IMG/VR virus record: IMGVR_UViG_2541047435_000009
Length of the DNA: 13,670 bases
DNA from: a virus
Taxonomy: Duplodnaviria > Heunggongvirae > Uroviricota > Caudoviricetes
Direction: 5' to 3' (one strand)
Below, piece after piece: positions 595-7,435 of the stretch (positions are counted from its first letter, which is position 1; every line of letters begins with the position of its first letter). Below the pieces are notes generated by a model, which saw nothing but the letters and a program-made list of their open reading frames with translations, was not told the DNA's origin and did not search any database. The translations under genes were made by a program, and so were the position numbers.

Positions 595-1071
595 ATGGAC
601 GGCGAGCTGAAAAATATGAAGTTAAATATTAATCAACTGGCAGCCCTTTCAGGTCTGCACCGGCAGACTGTTGCCGCCAGAATGGCGGATGTTCCTCTTG
701 CACCAGGCAGTAATGAAAAGAAAAAACTGTATCTCCTGACGGATTTGATAACTTCGTTGCTGGAAAAACCACCATCTTCCGAAGATGAGGATATGGATCC
801 TCACGCTCGTAAGGCATGGTATCAGTCCGAGCGCGAGCGTCTTAAATTTCAGCATGAAACTGTTCAGCTTGTGCCAGTCAGTGATGTCAGGCGGTCCTTT
901 TCTGTCGTGGTGAAAGCGATAGTTCAGGTACTGGAAACCTGGCCTGACCGGCTGGAGAGGGACAGGGGGTGGACTGCATCACAACTGAATGAAGTACAGA
1001 TTGTGGTTGATGAGATCCGCGACACACTGGAAAAGGCAGTCATTGACTGTTGTGATGAGGCCGATATGTGA
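595..1071 (+). CDS. nu1: terminase small subunit (Nu1-like)
   Basis: MKLNINQLAALSG... aligns with the lambda Nu1 N-terminal helix-turn-helix region (MEVNKKQLADIFG...). It is the first gene after cos, and its stop overlaps the large-subunit start (ATGTGA). GGAGGG at 583-588 precedes ATG 595; homology instead suggests ATG 616 as an alternative start. Confidence 0.8.
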   Translation: MDGELKNMKLNINQLAALSGLHRQTVAARMADVPLAPGSNEKKKLYLLTDLITSLLEKPPSSEDEDMDPHARKAWYQSERERLKFQHETVQLVPVSDVRRSFSVVVKAIVQVLETWPDRLERDRGWTASQLNEVQIVVDEIRDTLEKAVIDCCDEADM

Positions 1072-3191: not shown

Positions 3192-3400
3192 GCACAGAAG
3201 AAGCCAGAGAAATGATACAGCGGTACCGTGAAGCGGAAATGGCCGTACTGGAGGGAAAGTCTGTCATCTTCAACGGGCAGCAACTGACGCTGGAAAGCCT
3301 TTCTCAGATCCGCGCCGGACGTCAGGAGTGGGAACGCAGGCTTGCCGCGATGGTGAGCCGCAGGCGGGGAAAACCGGGATTTAAACTGGCGAGGTTTTAA
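3188..3400 (+). CDS. W: head-tail joining protein (gpW-like)
   Basis: About 70 aa ending ...RRRGKPGFKLARF, compared with lambda gpW ending ...RRRGPAGFYV. AGGAGG at 3176-3181 sits 6 nt before GTG 3188, which overlaps the gpA stop as GTGA. An in-frame ATG at 3164 is an alternative start. Confidence 0.8.
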   Translation: MSTEEAREMIQRYREAEMAVLEGKSVIFNGQQLTLESLSQIRAGRQEWERRLAAMVSRRRGKPGFKLARF

Positions 3401-4785
3401 TGGCAATTATTGATGATGTGATCGGCGTGTTTTCCCCCGGGTGGAAAGCAGCCAGACTGCGTTCAAGGGCGTTAATCATGGCCTATGAGGCGGTGAAACC
3501 GACCCGGACACATAAAGCCCGGCGGGAAAATCGCTCTGCTGATCAGCTCAGTAAATACGGTGCGGTTTCCCTGCGGGAGCAGGCCCGTTTTCTGGATATC
3601 AATCATGACCTGGTGATTGGTGTGTTTGACAAGCTGGAAGAGCGGGTGATTGGTGCCAGGGGAATTATTGTGGAGCCTCAGCCATTACGAAAAAACGGGG
3701 AAATGGCGGCTGAGCTGGCTGCGGATATCCGCCGTTTGTGGGCTGAATGGTCCGTGAGTCCGGATGTGACAGGGCAGTATACCCGTCCTGTGCTTGAACG
3801 TTTACTGCTGCGGACCTGGCTGCGGGATGGTGAAGTGTTTGCGCAGATGGTCAGTGGTGCGGGAAACGGTCTGGAACGGACGGCGGGAGTGCCATTCTGG
3901 CTTGAGGCGATGGAGCCGGATTTTGTTCCCATGCGCACTGATGAATCCGCCGGACTGAATCAGGGGGTTTTTCTTGATGAGTGGGGAAGACCGAAAAAAT
4001 ATCTGGTTTATAAAAATTATCCGGTCAGCGGCCGGCAGAGTGATACGAAAGAAATCGCTGCCGGAAAAATGATCCACCTGAAGTTCACTCGTCGTCTGCA
4101 TCAGACGCGAGGCTCATCCATGTTATCGGGGGTGCTGATGCGGATCAGTGCCCTTAAGGAGTATGAGGATGCGGAACTGACAGCGGCGCGTATTGCTGCG
4201 GCGCTGGGACTGTATATCCGTAAAGGTGACGGACAGGACTATGAAGATCCGGGGATCCGCAACGGCCAGTTGCGTGCAGTGGCAGCAGGCAGTCGTCTGA
4301 GTTTTTCCAGTGCGGCGCGTAACTATAACGGCACCTACAGCGCCCAGCGGCAGGAGCTGGTCGAGTCCACGGATGGTTACCTGATCCTGCAGGACTGTTT
4401 TATTGGCGCGGTAACCCGCCCGGTGTACCGGACATGGCTGAATATGGTGGTTGCGGCAGGTCTGCTGAAAATTCCGGCGGATGTGGAGATGAAAACGCTA
4501 TATAACGCGACGTATTCCGGTCCGGTGATGCCGTGGATCGACCCGGTTAAGGAAGCTGAAGCCTGGAGAATTCAGATCCGGGGTGGTGCAGCGACAGAAT
4601 CTGACTGGGTGCGTGCCGGTGGGCGCAATCCGGATGAGGTCAAACGTCGCCGCAAGGCTGAAATTGATGAAAACAGCAGACTGGGGCTGGTCTTTGATAC
4701 TGACCCCGTCAACGACAAAGGAGGCAACAGTGCCGGAACTGAACGACAGTATCAGCGCGACACCGAAAGCCAGCATGAAGAATAA
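3400..4785 (+). CDS. B: portal protein (lambda gpB family)
   Basis: 461-aa ORF directly after W (TAATG stop/start overlap; GAGG 5 nt upstream). Size and position fit a lambda-family portal. Assignment rests mainly on synteny and general portal-like composition. Confidence 0.85.
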   Translation: MAIIDDVIGVFSPGWKAARLRSRALIMAYEAVKPTRTHKARRENRSADQLSKYGAVSLREQARFLDINHDLVIGVFDKLEERVIGARGIIVEPQPLRKNGEMAAELAADIRRLWAEWSVSPDVTGQYTRPVLERLLLRTWLRDGEVFAQMVSGAGNGLERTAGVPFWLEAMEPDFVPMRTDESAGLNQGVFLDEWGRPKKYLVYKNYPVSGRQSDTKEIAAGKMIHLKFTRRLHQTRGSSMLSGVLMRISALKEYEDAELTAARIAAALGLYIRKGDGQDYEDPGIRNGQLRAVAAGSRLSFSSAARNYNGTYSAQRQELVESTDGYLILQDCFIGAVTRPVYRTWLNMVVAAGLLKIPADVEMKTLYNATYSGPVMPWIDPVKEAEAWRIQIRGGAATESDWVRAGGRNPDEVKRRRKAEIDENSRLGLVFDTDPVNDKGGNSAGTERQYQRDTESQHEE

Positions 4786-6757
4786 ATCCTGGTTCAGGAT
4801 GCAAGCTGGGGGGCCGGGTGACGCGGATATTTATATTTATGACGAGATTGGTTTCTGGGGAGTTACCGCGAAGCAGTTTGTCAGCGAACTGAATGCACTG
4901 GGTGATATCACCCACATTAATCTCCATATCAATTCACCGGGTGGCGATGTCTTTGAAGGCATCGCCATTTTTAATGCCCTGAAAAATCAGGGGGCGACCA
5001 TTACCGTGTATGTGGATGGCGTTGCCGCCTCGATGGCATCTGTGATTGCGATGGCCGGTGATACGGTCATTATGCCGGAAAATGCCTTCATGATGATCCA
5101 TAAGCCATGGGGATTCAGTGGCGGGGATGCTGAGGATATGCGCAGTTATGCCGATTTGCTGGATAAAGTCGAATCGGTACTGTTGCCAGCCTATGCGCAG
5201 AAAACCGGAAAAACCACCGATGAAATTGCTGCCATGCTGGCGGATGAGACCTGGATGTCCGGTGCCGAATGTCTGGCACATGGATTTGCTGATCAGGTGA
5301 CGCCAGCCGTTAAGGCAATGGCATGTATTCAGTCAAAACGTACAGAGGAATTTAAAAAGATGCCGGAATCCATTCGAAACATGATTACTCCGCCACGCAA
5401 CAGTGCTCCACGCGTACAGGATGATGGACCTGCAGCCTCCCGGACGCCAGTGCAGGCAGCAGCACCTGTGGTGGATGAAAACAGTATCCGTGCGCAGGTA
5501 CTGGCAGAGCAAAAAGCGCGTGTAAACGGTATTAATGATCTGTTTGCCATGTTTGGCGGGCGTTATCAGACGCTGCAGGCTCAGTGTCTTGCCGATCCTG
5601 AATGTTCGCTGGAGCAGGCCCGCGAAAAGCTGTTGAACGAGATGGGGCGCGAGTCCACGCCATCTAATAAAAATACCCCGGCTCATATTTATGCCGGAAA
5701 CGGTAATTTTGTGGGGGATGGGATCCGCCAGGCGCTGATGGCGCGTGCCGGATTTGAAAAAACCGAACGTGATAATGTCTACAACGGGATGACCCTGCGT
5801 GAATATGCCCGTATGTCACTGACTGAACGGGGTATTGGGGTTTCCAGTTATAACCCGATGCAGATGGTCGGTGCGGCGTTCACACACAGTACGTCTGACT
5901 TCGGTAATATTCTGCTGGATGTTGCGAACAAAGCCATTCTGCAGGGCTGGGAAGATGCCCCTGAAACCTATGAACAGTGGACGCGGAAAGGTCAGTTGTC
6001 TGATTTTAAAATTGCCCATCGTGTGGGTATGGGGGGCTTCAGTGCTCTGCGTCAGGTGCGTGAAGGGGCGGAATATAAATACGTCACCACCGGAGATAAA
6101 CAGGCCACTATTGCACTGGCGACCTATGGCGAGCTGTTCAGTATCACCCGTCAGGCCATTATCAATGATGATCTGAATATGCTGACCGATGTCCCGATGA
6201 AACTGGGCCGTGCGGCGAAATCCACTATTGCCGATCTGGTTTATGCCATTCTGACGTCTAACCCGAAAATCTCCACAGATAATGTAAGTCTGTTCGATAA
6301 AGCGAAACATGCAAACGTACTGGAGAGCGCTGCAATGGACGTGGCATCGCTGGATAAAGCCCGCCAGTTGATGCGCGTTCAGAAAGAGGGGGAGCGTCAT
6401 CTGAATATTCGTCCTGCGTTCGTACTGGTACCGACGGCGATGGAGTCTGTTGCTAACCAGGTCATTCGCTCCTCAAGTGTCAAGGGGGCTGACATTAACG
6501 CCGGTATTATTAACCCGGTGAAAGATTTTGCGACCGTTATTGCAGAGCCTCGTCTTGATGATAACAGCCAGACCACCTTCTACCTGGCTGCGTCAAAAGG
6601 CTCCGATACGATTGAAGTGGCTTATCTCAACGGTGTGGATACGCCATATATTGATCAGATGGAGGGCTTCAGTGTGGATGGCGTGACAACGAAAGTGCGT
6701 ATTGACGCCGGTGTCGCGCCAGTTGATCACCGCGGTCTGGTGAAATGTACGGCGTAA
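4730..6757 (+). CDS. fused prohead protease (ClpP/S14-like) and major capsid protein
   Basis: The N-terminal part has ClpP-like motifs (GVAASMAS serine motif, MIHKPWG histidine motif); the C-terminal roughly 330 aa resemble an HK97-fold capsid domain; a Q/E/A-rich linker lies between. Start chosen at GTG 4730, 5 nt downstream of a strong AAGGAGG (4717-4724); alternatives are ATG 4775 and ATG 4799. Overlaps the portal 3' end. Confidence 0.85.
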   Translation: MPELNDSISATPKASMKNKSWFRMQAGGPGDADIYIYDEIGFWGVTAKQFVSELNALGDITHINLHINSPGGDVFEGIAIFNALKNQGATITVYVDGVAASMASVIAMAGDTVIMPENAFMMIHKPWGFSGGDAEDMRSYADLLDKVESVLLPAYAQKTGKTTDEIAAMLADETWMSGAECLAHGFADQVTPAVKAMACIQSKRTEEFKKMPESIRNMITPPRNSAPRVQDDGPAASRTPVQAAAPVVDENSIRAQVLAEQKARVNGINDLFAMFGGRYQTLQAQCLADPECSLEQAREKLLNEMGRESTPSNKNTPAHIYAGNGNFVGDGIRQALMARAGFEKTERDNVYNGMTLREYARMSLTERGIGVSSYNPMQMVGAAFTHSTSDFGNILLDVANKAILQGWEDAPETYEQWTRKGQLSDFKIAHRVGMGGFSALRQVREGAEYKYVTTGDKQATIALATYGELFSITRQAIINDDLNMLTDVPMKLGRAAKSTIADLVYAILTSNPKISTDNVSLFDKAKHANVLESAAMDVASLDKARQLMRVQKEGERHLNIRPAFVLVPTAMESVANQVIRSSSVKGADINAGIINPVKDFATVIAEPRLDDNSQTTFYLAASKGSDTIEVAYLNGVDTPYIDQMEGFSVDGVTTKVRIDAGVAPVDHRGLVKCTA

Positions 6758-6780: not shown

Positions 6781-6800
6781 GGCCCGTAAGGGCTTTTTTT
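6781..6800 (+). terminator. intrinsic-terminator-like hairpin downstream of the capsid gene
   Basis: GCCC-GTAA-GGGC (GNRA tetraloop) followed by TTTTTTT, 25 nt after the capsid stop. The stem is short (4-5 bp), so this may be a partial terminator or an RNA-stabilising element. Confidence 0.45.
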
Positions 6801-6843
6801 GTACCTGAAATCAGCCCCTGAACGGGGCTGTGCGGAGACAGTT

Positions 6844-7167
6844 ATGGCAAAGAATTTTGTAGAAGAAGGAAAAACGGTGGCGATTGTTGCCAGTGCAGCC
6901 ATCAGCAGCGGAGATCTGGTGCAGGTGGGCGATGTTTTTGCGGTGGCGCTGACCGATATTCCACAGGGTGAAACAGGCGACGGCATGACCGAAGGTGTGT
7001 TTATGCTGCCTAAGCTGAAAACGGATGACATGAAAACGGGTAAGAAGGTTTATCTGAAGTCAGGAAAAGTTCAGCTGACTAACAGCGGCTCTGATCCGCT
7101 GGTCGGGGTTGTCTGGGCAGATGCCGGAACCAGTGCAGAAGAAGTGCCGGTAAAACTCAATGTCTGA
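6844..7167 (+). CDS. small head protein, DUF2190-like (putative capsid decoration/cement protein)
   Basis: 107 aa, MAKNFVEEGKTVAIVASAAISSGDLVQVGD..., in the position where lambda encodes gpD/FI. GGAG lies about 8 nt upstream of ATG 6844. The DUF2190 family assignment is from memory of the motif pattern. Confidence 0.6.
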   Translation: MAKNFVEEGKTVAIVASAAISSGDLVQVGDVFAVALTDIPQGETGDGMTEGVFMLPKLKTDDMKTGKKVYLKSGKVQLTNSGSDPLVGVVWADAGTSAEEVPVKLNV

Positions 7168-7435
7168 TCCCTTTTCCCGGCTGGCAGCGCGTATGGATGC
7201 TATCACGGTCAGAAAGATGGGAAAGACAGCCTCGATTAATGATGTCGATATGACTGTGATCCCGGGAGAAACACTGGCAGAGCTGAATGCTCTGTCCGGA
7301 CCTGCGGTCTCTCTGGTGGTGTTTTCTTCGGGATACCGCCCACGGCGCGGGGATCGCGTTGTTTATGACGGACAACAATGGACGGTCACACGGCATGAAC
7401 GCTTTAACGGTAAGCCAATGATCTTTATTGAGTAA
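7160..7435 (+). CDS. FII: head completion / head-tail joining protein (gpFII-like)
   Basis: 91 aa; ...PRRGDRVVYDGQQWTV... parallels lambda FII ...LRRGDTLTIGEENFWV.... Overlaps the upstream stop (ATGTCTGA). Confidence 0.7.
   Translation: MSDPFSRLAARMDAITVRKMGKTASINDVDMTVIPGETLAELNALSGPAVSLVVFSSGYRPRRGDRVVYDGQQWTVTRHERFNGKPMIFIE

What the first reader, a model, noticed from the sequence alone, without database searches (positions are those of the whole stretch)
4730..6757. Single ORF fusing ClpP-like prohead protease, linker and HK97-fold capsid domain, replacing lambda C/Nu3/D/E
Where lambda has separate protease/scaffold (C, Nu3), decoration (D) and capsid (E) genes, this phage has one ORF of about 675 aa with ClpP-type serine and histidine motifs at the N-terminus and a capsid-like C-terminal domain. 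It begins at a GTG with a strong AAGGAGG ribosome-binding site inside the last 56 nt of the portal gene. The capsid subunit would then have to be released by self-processing. An in-frame ATG at 5360 (GAGG about 11 nt upstream) could alternatively allow independent initiation of a scaffold-capsid product, analogous to nested Nu3 within lambda C.
Basis: partly seen in the sequence, partly recalled or inferred. Interest (0 to 1): 0.5.

Follow-up and report, generated by a model that had tools for sequence, protein, structure and literature searches.

The report
Fused protease–scaffold–capsid phage head gene
This is an ordinary, already catalogued prophage head gene of the Salmonella Gifsy-2 type, one reading frame joining a ClpP-like protease, a helical scaffold-like linker and an HK97-fold capsid protein; the one part worth an experiment is comparative evidence for a second, internal translation start that would make a protease-less scaffold-capsid product.

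Summary
Window 4730-6757 (+) is one uninterrupted 675-codon gene. It has a ClpP/S14 protease domain (aa 22-191, Ser101 and His124 invariant), a disordered-plus-helical linker (aa 224-326) and an HK97-fold capsid domain (aa 327-675).

The GTG start at 4730 with AAGGAGG upstream, inside the last 56 nt of the portal gene, is conserved in relatives. NCBI's annotation pipeline uses the same start.

The gene is not new. It scores 991 bits against NCBIfam NF045540, [quoted passage not shown] (cut-off 475). It is about 96% identical to proteins of phages mEp460 and cdtI, and 68% identical over its full length to the Gifsy-2 "tripartite capsid gene" (Effantin et al. 2010).

One claim is wrong. Lambda D is not replaced: a separate head-decoration gene follows at 6844-7167.

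- The ATG is kept in 41 of 42 relatives.
- A GAGG-type motif lies upstream and is held on the minor Glu codon GAG.
- Synonymous variation dips locally.
- The site is among the least-structured mRNA positions in the gene.

The Met is absent in more distant family members, and no experimental data exist. I rate internal initiation about 55% likely.

The parts
3400..4785 (+). Portal gene (lambda-family portal). Its last 56 nt overlap the start of the fusion gene.
   Evidence: Pfam Phage_portal_2, E 1.4e-64. It is 100% identical to the VT1-Sakai portal except for a 117-nt in-frame gap.
4718..4724 (+). Shine-Dalgarno AAGGAGG of the fusion gene, 5 nt before GTG 4730
   Evidence: Sequence. AAGGAG(G) is conserved upstream of the aligned start codon in relatives.
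4730..6757 (+). Fusion gene: ClpP-like prohead protease, scaffold-like linker and major capsid protein. 675 aa, 73.2 kDa.
   Evidence: NCBIfam NF045540, 991 bits against a cut-off of 475. PHROG 133. Same CDS as PGAP calls in E. coli RM14723. 68% identical to the Gifsy-2 protein. Mass.
4793..5302 (+). ClpP/S14-fold protease domain (aa 22-191)
5030..5032 (+). Codon for Ser101 (TCG), the predicted catalytic serine in GVAASMAS
   Evidence: Invariant in 98 aligned homologues and in 133 of 134. Lies in the query stretch GVAASMA matched to ClpP's GMAASMA; identifying that motif as the active-site serine motif is from my own knowledge of ClpP.
5099..5101 (+). Codon for His124 (CAT), the predicted catalytic histidine in MMIHKPW
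   Evidence: Invariant. Aligned to the ClpP MIHQP motif.
5246..5248 (+). Codon for Glu173 (GAG), the likely third triad residue; by my reading of the alignment it lies opposite an Asp that I take (from memory of ClpP) to be the catalytic Asp171
   Evidence: Glu in 113 and Asp in 14 of 134 homologues. Position read by hand from the alignment. The triad role is inferred.
5345..5349 (+). Candidate internal Shine-Dalgarno GAGGA (codons Glu206-Glu207), 10 nt before ATG 5360
   Evidence: A GAGG, AAGG or GGAG motif is present in all 41 relatives that keep the ATG. Codon 206 is GAG in 27 of 28 Glu, against a gene-wide GAG share of 0.39. It is the most codon-invariant of 24 conserved Glu columns.
5360..5362 (+). 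In-frame ATG (Met211), candidate internal start for a 465-aa, 50.6-kDa scaffold-capsid product
   Evidence: ATG in 41 of 42 loci and in Gifsy-2. Local dip in synonymous variation at aa 193-217. Least-structured 0.3% of in-frame positions in the window. Only one of 9 conserved Met codons with both an SD-like motif and open structure.
5399..5467 (+). Disordered Pro/Ala/Gln-rich linker (aa 224-246), variable in length and sequence
   Evidence: AF2 pLDDT below 50. Variable region in the alignment.
5477..5650 (+). Helical scaffold-like (delta-domain-like) region, aa 250-307
   Evidence: AF2 helices 250-273, 280-288 and 294-307 with pLDDT 81-94. The scaffolding role is inferred by analogy.
5651..5707 (+). 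Flexible segment (aa 308-326), the likely site of the maturation cleavage that frees the capsid subunit
   Evidence: Low pLDDT, especially 316-318. Length-variable stretch just before the conserved H-I-Y-A-G-N-G-N motif. The cleavage site itself is inferred.
5708..6754 (+). HK97-fold major capsid protein domain (aa 327-675)
6781..6801 (+). Terminator-like hairpin plus T-run between the capsid gene and the decoration gene
   Evidence: The equivalent site in mEp460 is annotated as a rho-independent terminator.
6844..7167 (+). Separate head-decoration (cement) gene, 107 aa; the functional counterpart of lambda D
   Evidence: Pfam Phage_cement_2, E 1.4e-20. PHROG 122 'head decoration'. 61% identical to the Gifsy-2 gene at the same position.

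Best explanation
Window 4730-6757 is the head-assembly gene of a lambdoid E. coli prophage of the Gifsy-2 / mEp460 / cdtI / VT1-Sakai head type. It is a single polypeptide carrying three parts in order.

1. A ClpP-family serine protease, with Ser101, His124 and probably Glu173.
2. A flexible linker followed by a short helical, scaffold-like domain.
3. An HK97-fold major capsid protein.

Shown here: the architecture, the folds, the family membership, the start codon and the synteny (terminase, small head-tail joining gene, portal, fusion gene, decoration gene, tail genes).

Inferred from the family and from established knowledge of HK97, lambda and Gifsy-2: the subunits assemble through their C-terminal capsid domains into a procapsid on the portal, with the protease and scaffold parts pointing inward. 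The protease then cuts itself and the scaffold away, most likely within aa 308-326. This leaves a mature capsid subunit of about 39 kDa. The shell expands on DNA packaging and is cemented by the separately encoded decoration protein (6844-7167).

Additional proposal, about 55% likely: ribosomes also start at ATG 5360 (Met211). This would give a 50.6-kDa scaffold-capsid protein without the protease. That product would co-assemble with the full-length protein and set a sub-stoichiometric protease dose. It is the same logic as Nu3 nested in lambda C.
For: Architecture and family:
- Pfam and NCBIfam hits.
- AF2 model with mean pLDDT 85.2 and clear domain boundaries.
- ClpP fold and HK97 fold.
- Ser101 and His124 invariant.
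- 68% full-length identity to the Gifsy-2 protein and about 95% nucleotide identity to mEp460, cdtI and others.
- Same gene order as mEp460 and Gifsy-2.
- PGAP names the homologue 'ClpP-like prohead protease/major capsid protein fusion protein'.
[quoted passage not shown] PMC8538268 lists Gifsy-2 among phages with a trimeric decoration protein at the 3-fold axes.

Start codon.

Internal start:
- ATG kept in 41 of 42 loci at 48-96% aa identity, with an SD-like motif upstream in all 41.
- Codon 206 fixed on the minor codon GAG.
- Synonymous observed/expected ratio falls to 0.76-0.80 at aa 193-217. This is the only dip of that depth outside the portal overlap.
- The 60 nt around the ATG fold at -1.6 kcal/mol against a gene median of -14.3. 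The site ranks among the least-structured 0.3-4.4% of positions in 21 of 22 homologues.
- It is the only one of 9 conserved Met codons that combines both features.
- Residues 209-220 onward also align to a second fusion family with a different N-terminal part (NF045541, PHROG 4523). Met211 therefore sits at a module boundary.
Against: Nothing contradicts the fusion-gene reading.

For function in this particular genome: the neighbouring portal gene lacks 117 nt present in the otherwise identical VT1-Sakai portal. The prophage may therefore be defective.

For the internal start:
- In 133 more distant representatives (35-60% identity) the column is Ala, Val, Ile, Leu or Pro rather than Met. What is conserved there is a protein motif, F/Y-x-x-x-P.
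- The SD-to-ATG spacing of 10-11 nt is longer than optimal.
- The Lys/Glu/Asn-rich peptide here forces A-rich codons, which by itself lowers mRNA structure.
- The synonymous dip is modest.
- No proteomic or ribosome-profiling data were found.
Confidence: 0.9

Rival explanations
1. Only the full-length 675-aa protein is made. Met211, the upstream GAGG and the open mRNA structure would be by-products of a conserved protein motif (R-x-E-E-F-x-x-M-P) and of the A-rich codons of a Lys/Glu-rich inter-domain segment.
For: In more distant family members the position is Ala, Val, Ile, Leu or Pro, while Pro212 (117 of 134) and Phe/Tyr208 are conserved. The motif therefore has a protein-level role without a Met. 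The SD spacing is 10-11 nt. The synonymous dip is only about 24%.
Against: A protein-level constraint does not explain why Glu206 is fixed on the minor codon GAG in 27 of 28 sequences. Neighbouring Phe, Lys and Ile codons vary freely. It also does not explain why the one sequence without the ATG (L042) has GAA there. The site stays among the least-structured positions even in GC-rich Pseudomonas relatives.
Confidence: 0.4
2. The long ORF is an artefact. A sequencing error or frameshift would have joined a separate protease gene to a separate capsid gene.
For: None found. Database entries do show frame-joining artefacts nearby: 1159-aa portal-plus-fusion 'proteins'.
Against: The same uninterrupted frame occurs in dozens of independent genomes and phage isolates at 48-96% identity. 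A curated NCBIfam model covers the whole length. The Gifsy-2 gene has been studied as a single composite gene.
Confidence: 0.01
3. The gene is intact but idle here. The window would come from a defective prophage whose head module can no longer build capsids, so the fusion gene is a relic in this genome.
For: The portal ORF is 100% identical to the VT1-Sakai portal but lacks 117 nt in frame (about 39-41 aa in the portal core). The fusion gene is itself a recombinant of two lineages.
Against: The fusion gene, the decoration gene and the tail genes are all open. An in-frame deletion is not proof of loss of function. Only 13.7 kb of the element is visible.
Confidence: 0.3

Closest known systems
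Gifsy-2 'tripartite capsid gene' (Salmonella phage Gifsy-2, NC_010393 22471-24561; Effantin et al. 2010, Virology 402:355)
   Same: 68% identical over the full length. Same order of protease, central region and capsid domain. Same neighbours: portal upstream with overlap, and a 107-aa decoration gene downstream at 61% identity. Gifsy-2 has the same GAGGAG-N10-ATG at the equivalent Met221.
   Different: Gifsy-2 is 696 aa as annotated, against 675 aa here, with a longer N-terminus and linker. The biochemical and cryo-EM data exist only for Gifsy-2. I could not open that paper. What I say about its content rests on citing papers and on memory.
NCBIfam NF045540 / PHROG 133: ClpP-like prohead protease/major capsid protein fusion proteins of E. 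coli phages mEp460, cdtI, phi458, Tritos, Ayreon, VT1-Sakai, 1720a-02 and Pseudomonas MD8
   Same: 991 bits against a cut-off of 475. About 95% nucleotide and 96% aa identity to mEp460-type genes. 57% aa identity to MD8, which is annotated 'protease and major capsid protein'.
   Different: The window gene is a mosaic. Up to about 5209-5229 it is nearly identical to the 1720a-02 / VT1-Sakai lineage, and after that to the mEp460 lineage.
Lambda C / Nu3 (protease-scaffold gene with a nested in-frame scaffold gene)
   Same: Same genome position after the portal. ClpP/crotonase-superfamily serine protease followed by a scaffold-like segment. A candidate nested in-frame start with its own SD.
   Different: Here the capsid protein is part of the same polypeptide. 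The protease scores as S14 ClpP rather than S49 SppA-type. The nested product is only predicted.
HK97 gp5 (capsid protein with an N-terminal delta domain as built-in scaffold) and gp4 protease
   Same: HK97 fold. A helical segment precedes the capsid domain. A protease is expected to remove it.
   Different: In HK97 the protease is a separate gene of a different family (from my own knowledge: Pfam Peptidase_S78, formerly U35). HK97 stabilises its shell by covalent cross-links and has no decoration protein. Here a cement protein is encoded downstream.
NCBIfam NF045541 'prohead protease/major capsid protein fusion protein' (second fusion family) / PHROG 4523
   Same: Residues 220-672 align to it (399 bits). 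The scaffold-capsid part is therefore homologous.
   Different: The score is below that family's cut-off of 525. Its N-terminal part does not match the window's protease region.

Membership tests
ClpP-like prohead protease/major capsid protein fusion (NCBIfam NF045540; Gifsy-2-type tripartite capsid gene) | Single uninterrupted ORF spanning protease, linker and capsid domains | tested here: met
   The same frame is found in 37 other genomes.
ClpP-like prohead protease/major capsid protein fusion (NCBIfam NF045540; Gifsy-2-type tripartite capsid gene) | Whole-protein score above the curated cut-off | tested here: met
   991.3 bits against a cut-off of 475, covering aa 32-674 of the protein and positions 2-651 of 652 in the model.
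ClpP-like prohead protease/major capsid protein fusion (NCBIfam NF045540; Gifsy-2-type tripartite capsid gene) | N-terminal ClpP/S14 fold with catalytic Ser and His | tested here: met
ClpP-like prohead protease/major capsid protein fusion (NCBIfam NF045540; Gifsy-2-type tripartite capsid gene) | C-terminal HK97-fold capsid domain | tested here: met
ClpP-like prohead protease/major capsid protein fusion (NCBIfam NF045540; Gifsy-2-type tripartite capsid gene) | Location in a head module between the portal and a small decoration gene | tested here: met
ClpP-like prohead protease/major capsid protein fusion (NCBIfam NF045540; Gifsy-2-type tripartite capsid gene) | Proteolytic release of the mature capsid subunit in the procapsid | not testable with these tools
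   Needs N-terminal sequencing or mass spectrometry of virions. The site is predicted within aa 308-326 from the model and the alignment.
Nested in-frame scaffold gene (lambda C/Nu3-type arrangement) | Conserved in-frame start codon with its own ribosome-binding site inside the longer gene | tested here: inconclusive
   ATG plus an SD-like motif is conserved in 41 of 42 subfamily members. There is synonymous constraint and open mRNA structure. The Met is not conserved in distant family members.
Nested in-frame scaffold gene (lambda C/Nu3-type arrangement) | Detected shorter protein product | not testable with these tools
   No proteomic or ribosome-profiling data were found.
Lambda gpC protease (peptidase S49, SppA-like) | Best match to S49/SppA-type profiles | tested here: not met
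   Best matches are the S14 ClpP profiles. SppA_dom reaches only 26.8 bits against a cut-off of 155. SppA appears only as a more distant structural neighbour.
   A separate decoration gene is present at 6844-7167. Its listed Pfam matches were Phage_cement_2 (above cut-off) and Phage_cement (below cut-off); no other Pfam family was reported for it at E<=0.01.
HK97 gp5-type capsid protein with built-in delta-domain scaffold | Helical N-terminal extension directly preceding the HK97-fold domain | tested here: met
   Helices at aa 250-307, then a flexible segment, then the capsid domain. The scaffolding function is inferred.
HK97 gp5-type capsid protein with built-in delta-domain scaffold | Covalent Lys-Asn chainmail cross-link | not tested
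   The presence of a cement protein gene suggests non-covalent stabilisation instead.

The most novel reading that the evidence does not exclude
In the gammaproteobacterial branch of this fusion family, including this gene and Gifsy-2, the composite capsid gene may really be two nested genes. Translation from the main GTG gives protease-scaffold-capsid. Translation from the conserved internal ATG (Met211, window 5360) gives scaffold-capsid alone. The two products would co-assemble through their shared capsid domain. The ratio of the two starts would then set how many protease copies each procapsid contains. I found no paper that proposes or tests this, but I could not read the Gifsy-2 paper itself.
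Probability: 0.55. Interest if true: 0.45.

Novelty: already known. Interest (0 to 1): 0.25.

Why it matters
The fusion itself needs no follow-up. It is a curated family with an experimentally studied member, and near-identical copies sit in thousands of E. coli genomes.

What could matter is how a phage controls protease dose when protease, scaffold and coat are one gene. If every one of the roughly 415 subunits of a T=7 shell carried a protease, that would be far more than the few dozen copies HK97 proheads carry (figure from memory). A conserved internal start would solve this in the same way as lambda C/Nu3 and herpesvirus UL26/UL26.5. That would extend a recurring nested-gene design to fused capsid genes.

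It would also change annotation, from one product to two. It would matter for reading capsid-sensing defence systems that respond to capsid precursors. The test is cheap: two point mutations and a gel.

Tried and rejected
1. AF2 without an alignment gave an unusable model, with mean pLDDT 40.5. It was replaced by a run with a 98-sequence alignment.

3. The Gifsy-2 paper could not be opened by DOI or PubMed id. Its content is cited second-hand or from memory.

4. Literature searches for an internal start or proteomics of such fusion genes found nothing relevant (one malformed query). Two candidate papers were unrelated.

5. I suspected that the 60-nt block around ATG 5360, identical in five E. 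coli phage sequences, marked a recombination junction exactly at the module boundary. The junction is instead at 5210-5229, inside the protease domain. I dropped that argument, and I count the five-sequence identity as weak evidence only.

6. I considered whether the 1159-aa portal-plus-fusion proteins in the database reflect programmed frameshifting. Their frame junctions lie at different positions, so they are independent indels or sequencing errors.

7. Alternative starts at ATG 4775 and ATG 4799 (the latter is used in the GenBank mEp460 record) were rejected. ATG 4775 is absent in the mEp460 lineage. In relatives such as MD8 there is no Met at the position of ATG 4799, and its annotated start lies well upstream of the conserved S-W-Y/F motif.
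Full report
**Observation**

The window has one long + strand frame ending at TAA 6755-6757. The ORF tool lists it from GTG 4583, and the frame is open from 4529. It lies 56 nt before the stop of the portal ORF (3400-4785). From there the product is 675 aa.

In 39 aligned relatives the same column holds GTG (28) or ATG (6), with AAGGAG(G) 5-6 nt upstream. The remaining five have a start one or two codons away. PGAP annotates the E. coli RM14723 homologue with exactly this start and length.

Two other in-frame ATGs, at 4775 and 4799, are not conserved. The second is the one used in the GenBank mEp460 record. The coordinates and the start are therefore confirmed.

**What it is**

- Pfam finds CLP_protease at aa 46-191 (E 1.5e-36) and Phage_capsid_4 at aa 378-672 (E 2.3e-54).
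- NCBIfam NF045540, [quoted passage not shown], scores 991 bits against a cut-off of 475 over essentially the whole length.
- PHROG 133 covers aa 14-675.
- An AlphaFold2 model built on 98 homologues has mean pLDDT 85.2. Its parts are:
  - a compact domain at aa 22-191;
  - two short helices at aa 203-207 and 213-219;
  - a disordered stretch at aa 224-246;
  - helices at aa 250-307;
  - a flexible stretch around aa 316-318;
  - a large alpha/beta domain at aa 327-675.
- Ser101 (GVAASMAS) and His124 (MMIHKPW) are invariant in the family. The GVAASMA and MIHKPW stretches are matched to ClpP's GMAASMA and MIHQPW; that these are the active-site serine and histidine motifs is from my knowledge of ClpP.
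- Glu173 (Glu in 113 and Asp in 14 of 134 sequences). By my own reading of the alignment it lies opposite a ClpP Asp that I take, from memory, to be the catalytic Asp171.

**Surroundings**

The gene order is small terminase-like DUF1441, large terminase, a small ORF, portal, fusion gene, a terminator-like hairpin (6781-6801), a 107-aa gene (6844-7167), then the lambda Z-, U- and V-like tail genes. mEp460 and Gifsy-2 have the same order.

The 107-aa gene is a head-decoration (cement) protein. It hits Pfam Phage_cement_2 (E 1.4e-20) and PHROG 122 'head decoration' (E 1.8e-47). It is 61% identical to the Gifsy-2 gene in that position. The fusion gene therefore stands in for lambda C, Nu3 and E, but not for D.

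**How known it is**

- The DNA is about 95% identical to phages phi458, mEp460, cdtI, Tritos and Ayreon, and about 80-82% identical to VT1-Sakai, 1720a-02 and several Stx2 phages.
- Eighty phage records carry a full-length relative, including Pseudomonas MD8, annotated 'protease and major capsid protein'.
- The 13.7-kb window as a whole matches DNA in 5078 of 5426 complete E. coli genomes. All eight listed hits carry the PGAP fusion-protein name under the match. The gene alone was not searched against that collection.
- More than a hundred clusters at 50% identity are full-length fusions.
- The protein is 68% identical over its whole length to the Gifsy-2 gene product.
- The literature cites that gene as "the tripartite capsid gene" (Effantin et al. 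2010). [quoted passage not shown] PMC8538268 lists Gifsy-2 among phages with a trimeric cement protein at the 3-fold axes.
- I could not open the 2010 paper. Anything more specific about it would come from memory.

**Mechanism**

The following is inferred, not shown. By analogy with HK97, lambda and Gifsy-2, the subunits assemble through the capsid domain with the protease and helical parts inside the procapsid. The protease then removes everything N-terminal of the capsid domain. The shell expands and binds the cement protein.

The alignment and the model place the likely maturation cut in the flexible, length-variable aa 308-326. This lies just before the conserved H-I-Y-A-G-N-G-N motif. The cut would leave a subunit of about 39 kDa.

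**The internal start**

I tested this on 42 homologous loci at 48-96% aa identity: the window, four phages and 37 genomes.

1. The ATG is present in 41 of 42 loci, and also in Gifsy-2. A GAGG, AAGG or GGAG motif lies about 9-11 nt upstream in all 41. The single sequence with ATT instead of ATG also lacks the motif.
2. Codon 206 supplies the motif. It is GAG in 27 of 28 sequences with Glu, although GAG makes up only 39% of Glu codons in these genes. It is the most codon-invariant of 24 conserved Glu columns. Of the five most invariant two-fold columns it is the only one held on GAG, the minority Glu codon in these genes; the other four are held on AAA, CAG or AAC, which I take from general E. 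coli codon usage to be the commoner codons (not measured here).
3. A pairwise synonymous-difference profile (32 sequences, 15-codon windows) has two minima. One is at aa 1-22, the portal overlap and main start, with observed/expected of 0.60-0.80. The other is at aa 193-217, with 0.76-0.80. All other sampled windows (every fifth codon) lie between 0.81 and 1.19.
4. The 60 nt centred on the ATG fold at -1.6 kcal/mol against a gene median of -14.3. The site is among the least-structured 0.3-4.4% of in-frame positions in 21 of 22 homologues, including GC-rich Pseudomonas relatives.
5. Of nine conserved internal Met codons, only Met211 combines an SD-like motif with open structure.
6. Residues 209-220 onward also align to a second fusion family with a different N-terminal part (NF045541, PHROG 4523). 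Met211 therefore sits at a module boundary.

Evidence against the internal start:

- In 133 more distant representatives the column is Ala, Val, Ile, Leu or Pro. The conserved feature there is a protein motif, F/Y-x-x-x-P. The start would therefore be specific to one subfamily.
- The SD spacing is long.
- The local Lys/Glu/Asn-rich sequence favours A-rich, unstructured RNA in any case.
- I found no experimental data.

I put internal initiation at about 55%.

**Verdict**

Interest is low for the fusion itself. It is moderate for the nested-start hypothesis, which two point mutations or one initiation-profiling experiment could settle.

Noticed in passing
window 3400-4785 (gap near 4246-4260): The portal ORF is 461 aa. 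Its DNA is 100% identical to the VT1-Sakai portal but aligns in two pieces spanning 1503 nt there, so the window lacks 117 nt in frame. Against the 502-aa RM14723 portal the gap is 41 aa. The prophage may be defective.
   Followed up: partly
window 4583-6757, junction at 5210-5229: The fusion gene is a recombinant. From 4583 to 5229 it has 1 mismatch to phage 1720a-02 but 103 to mEp460. After 5209 it has only 2 mismatches to mEp460 up to 5420, and it is 97-100% identical to mEp460 to the end. The crossover lies inside the protease domain (about aa 161-167), not at the domain boundary.
   Followed up: yes
window 4529-4729; database proteins P0005-P0015, P0063, P0078: The fusion gene's frame is open for 201 nt upstream of its start, inside the portal gene. 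Public databases hold many 1080-1159-aa portal-plus-fusion 'proteins' whose frame junctions lie at different positions. They are independent indels or sequencing errors, not one programmed event. The same open stretch explains over-long N-termini such as P0003 (707 aa) and the CP-1639 CDS.
   Followed up: yes
window 6781-6801: A GC-stem hairpin followed by T7 lies between the capsid gene and the decoration gene. The equivalent site in mEp460 is annotated as a rho-independent terminator. It might lower decoration-gene or tail-gene transcription relative to the capsid gene.
   Followed up: no
window 4730-6757, aa 220-672: The scaffold-plus-capsid part also matches a second curated fusion family (NF045541, 399 bits, below its cut-off of 525; PHROG 4523 'major head and protease protein'). 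That family's N-terminal part does not match the window's protease region. This suggests that the N-terminal module has been exchanged on a common scaffold-capsid backbone.
   Followed up: no
window 7160-7435: This 91-aa ORF hits Pfam PF13856 'Gifsy-2', described as 'ATP-binding sugar transporter from pro-phage'. It also weakly hits Phage_attach (head-tail attachment). PGAP calls the homologue 'DNA breaking-rejoining protein'. Its position suggests a head-tail joining protein, so both names look misleading.
   Followed up: no
window 595-1071: The gene before the large terminase is a DUF1441 protein. Its counterparts in mEp460 and Gifsy-2 are annotated as the small terminase subunit.
   Followed up: no
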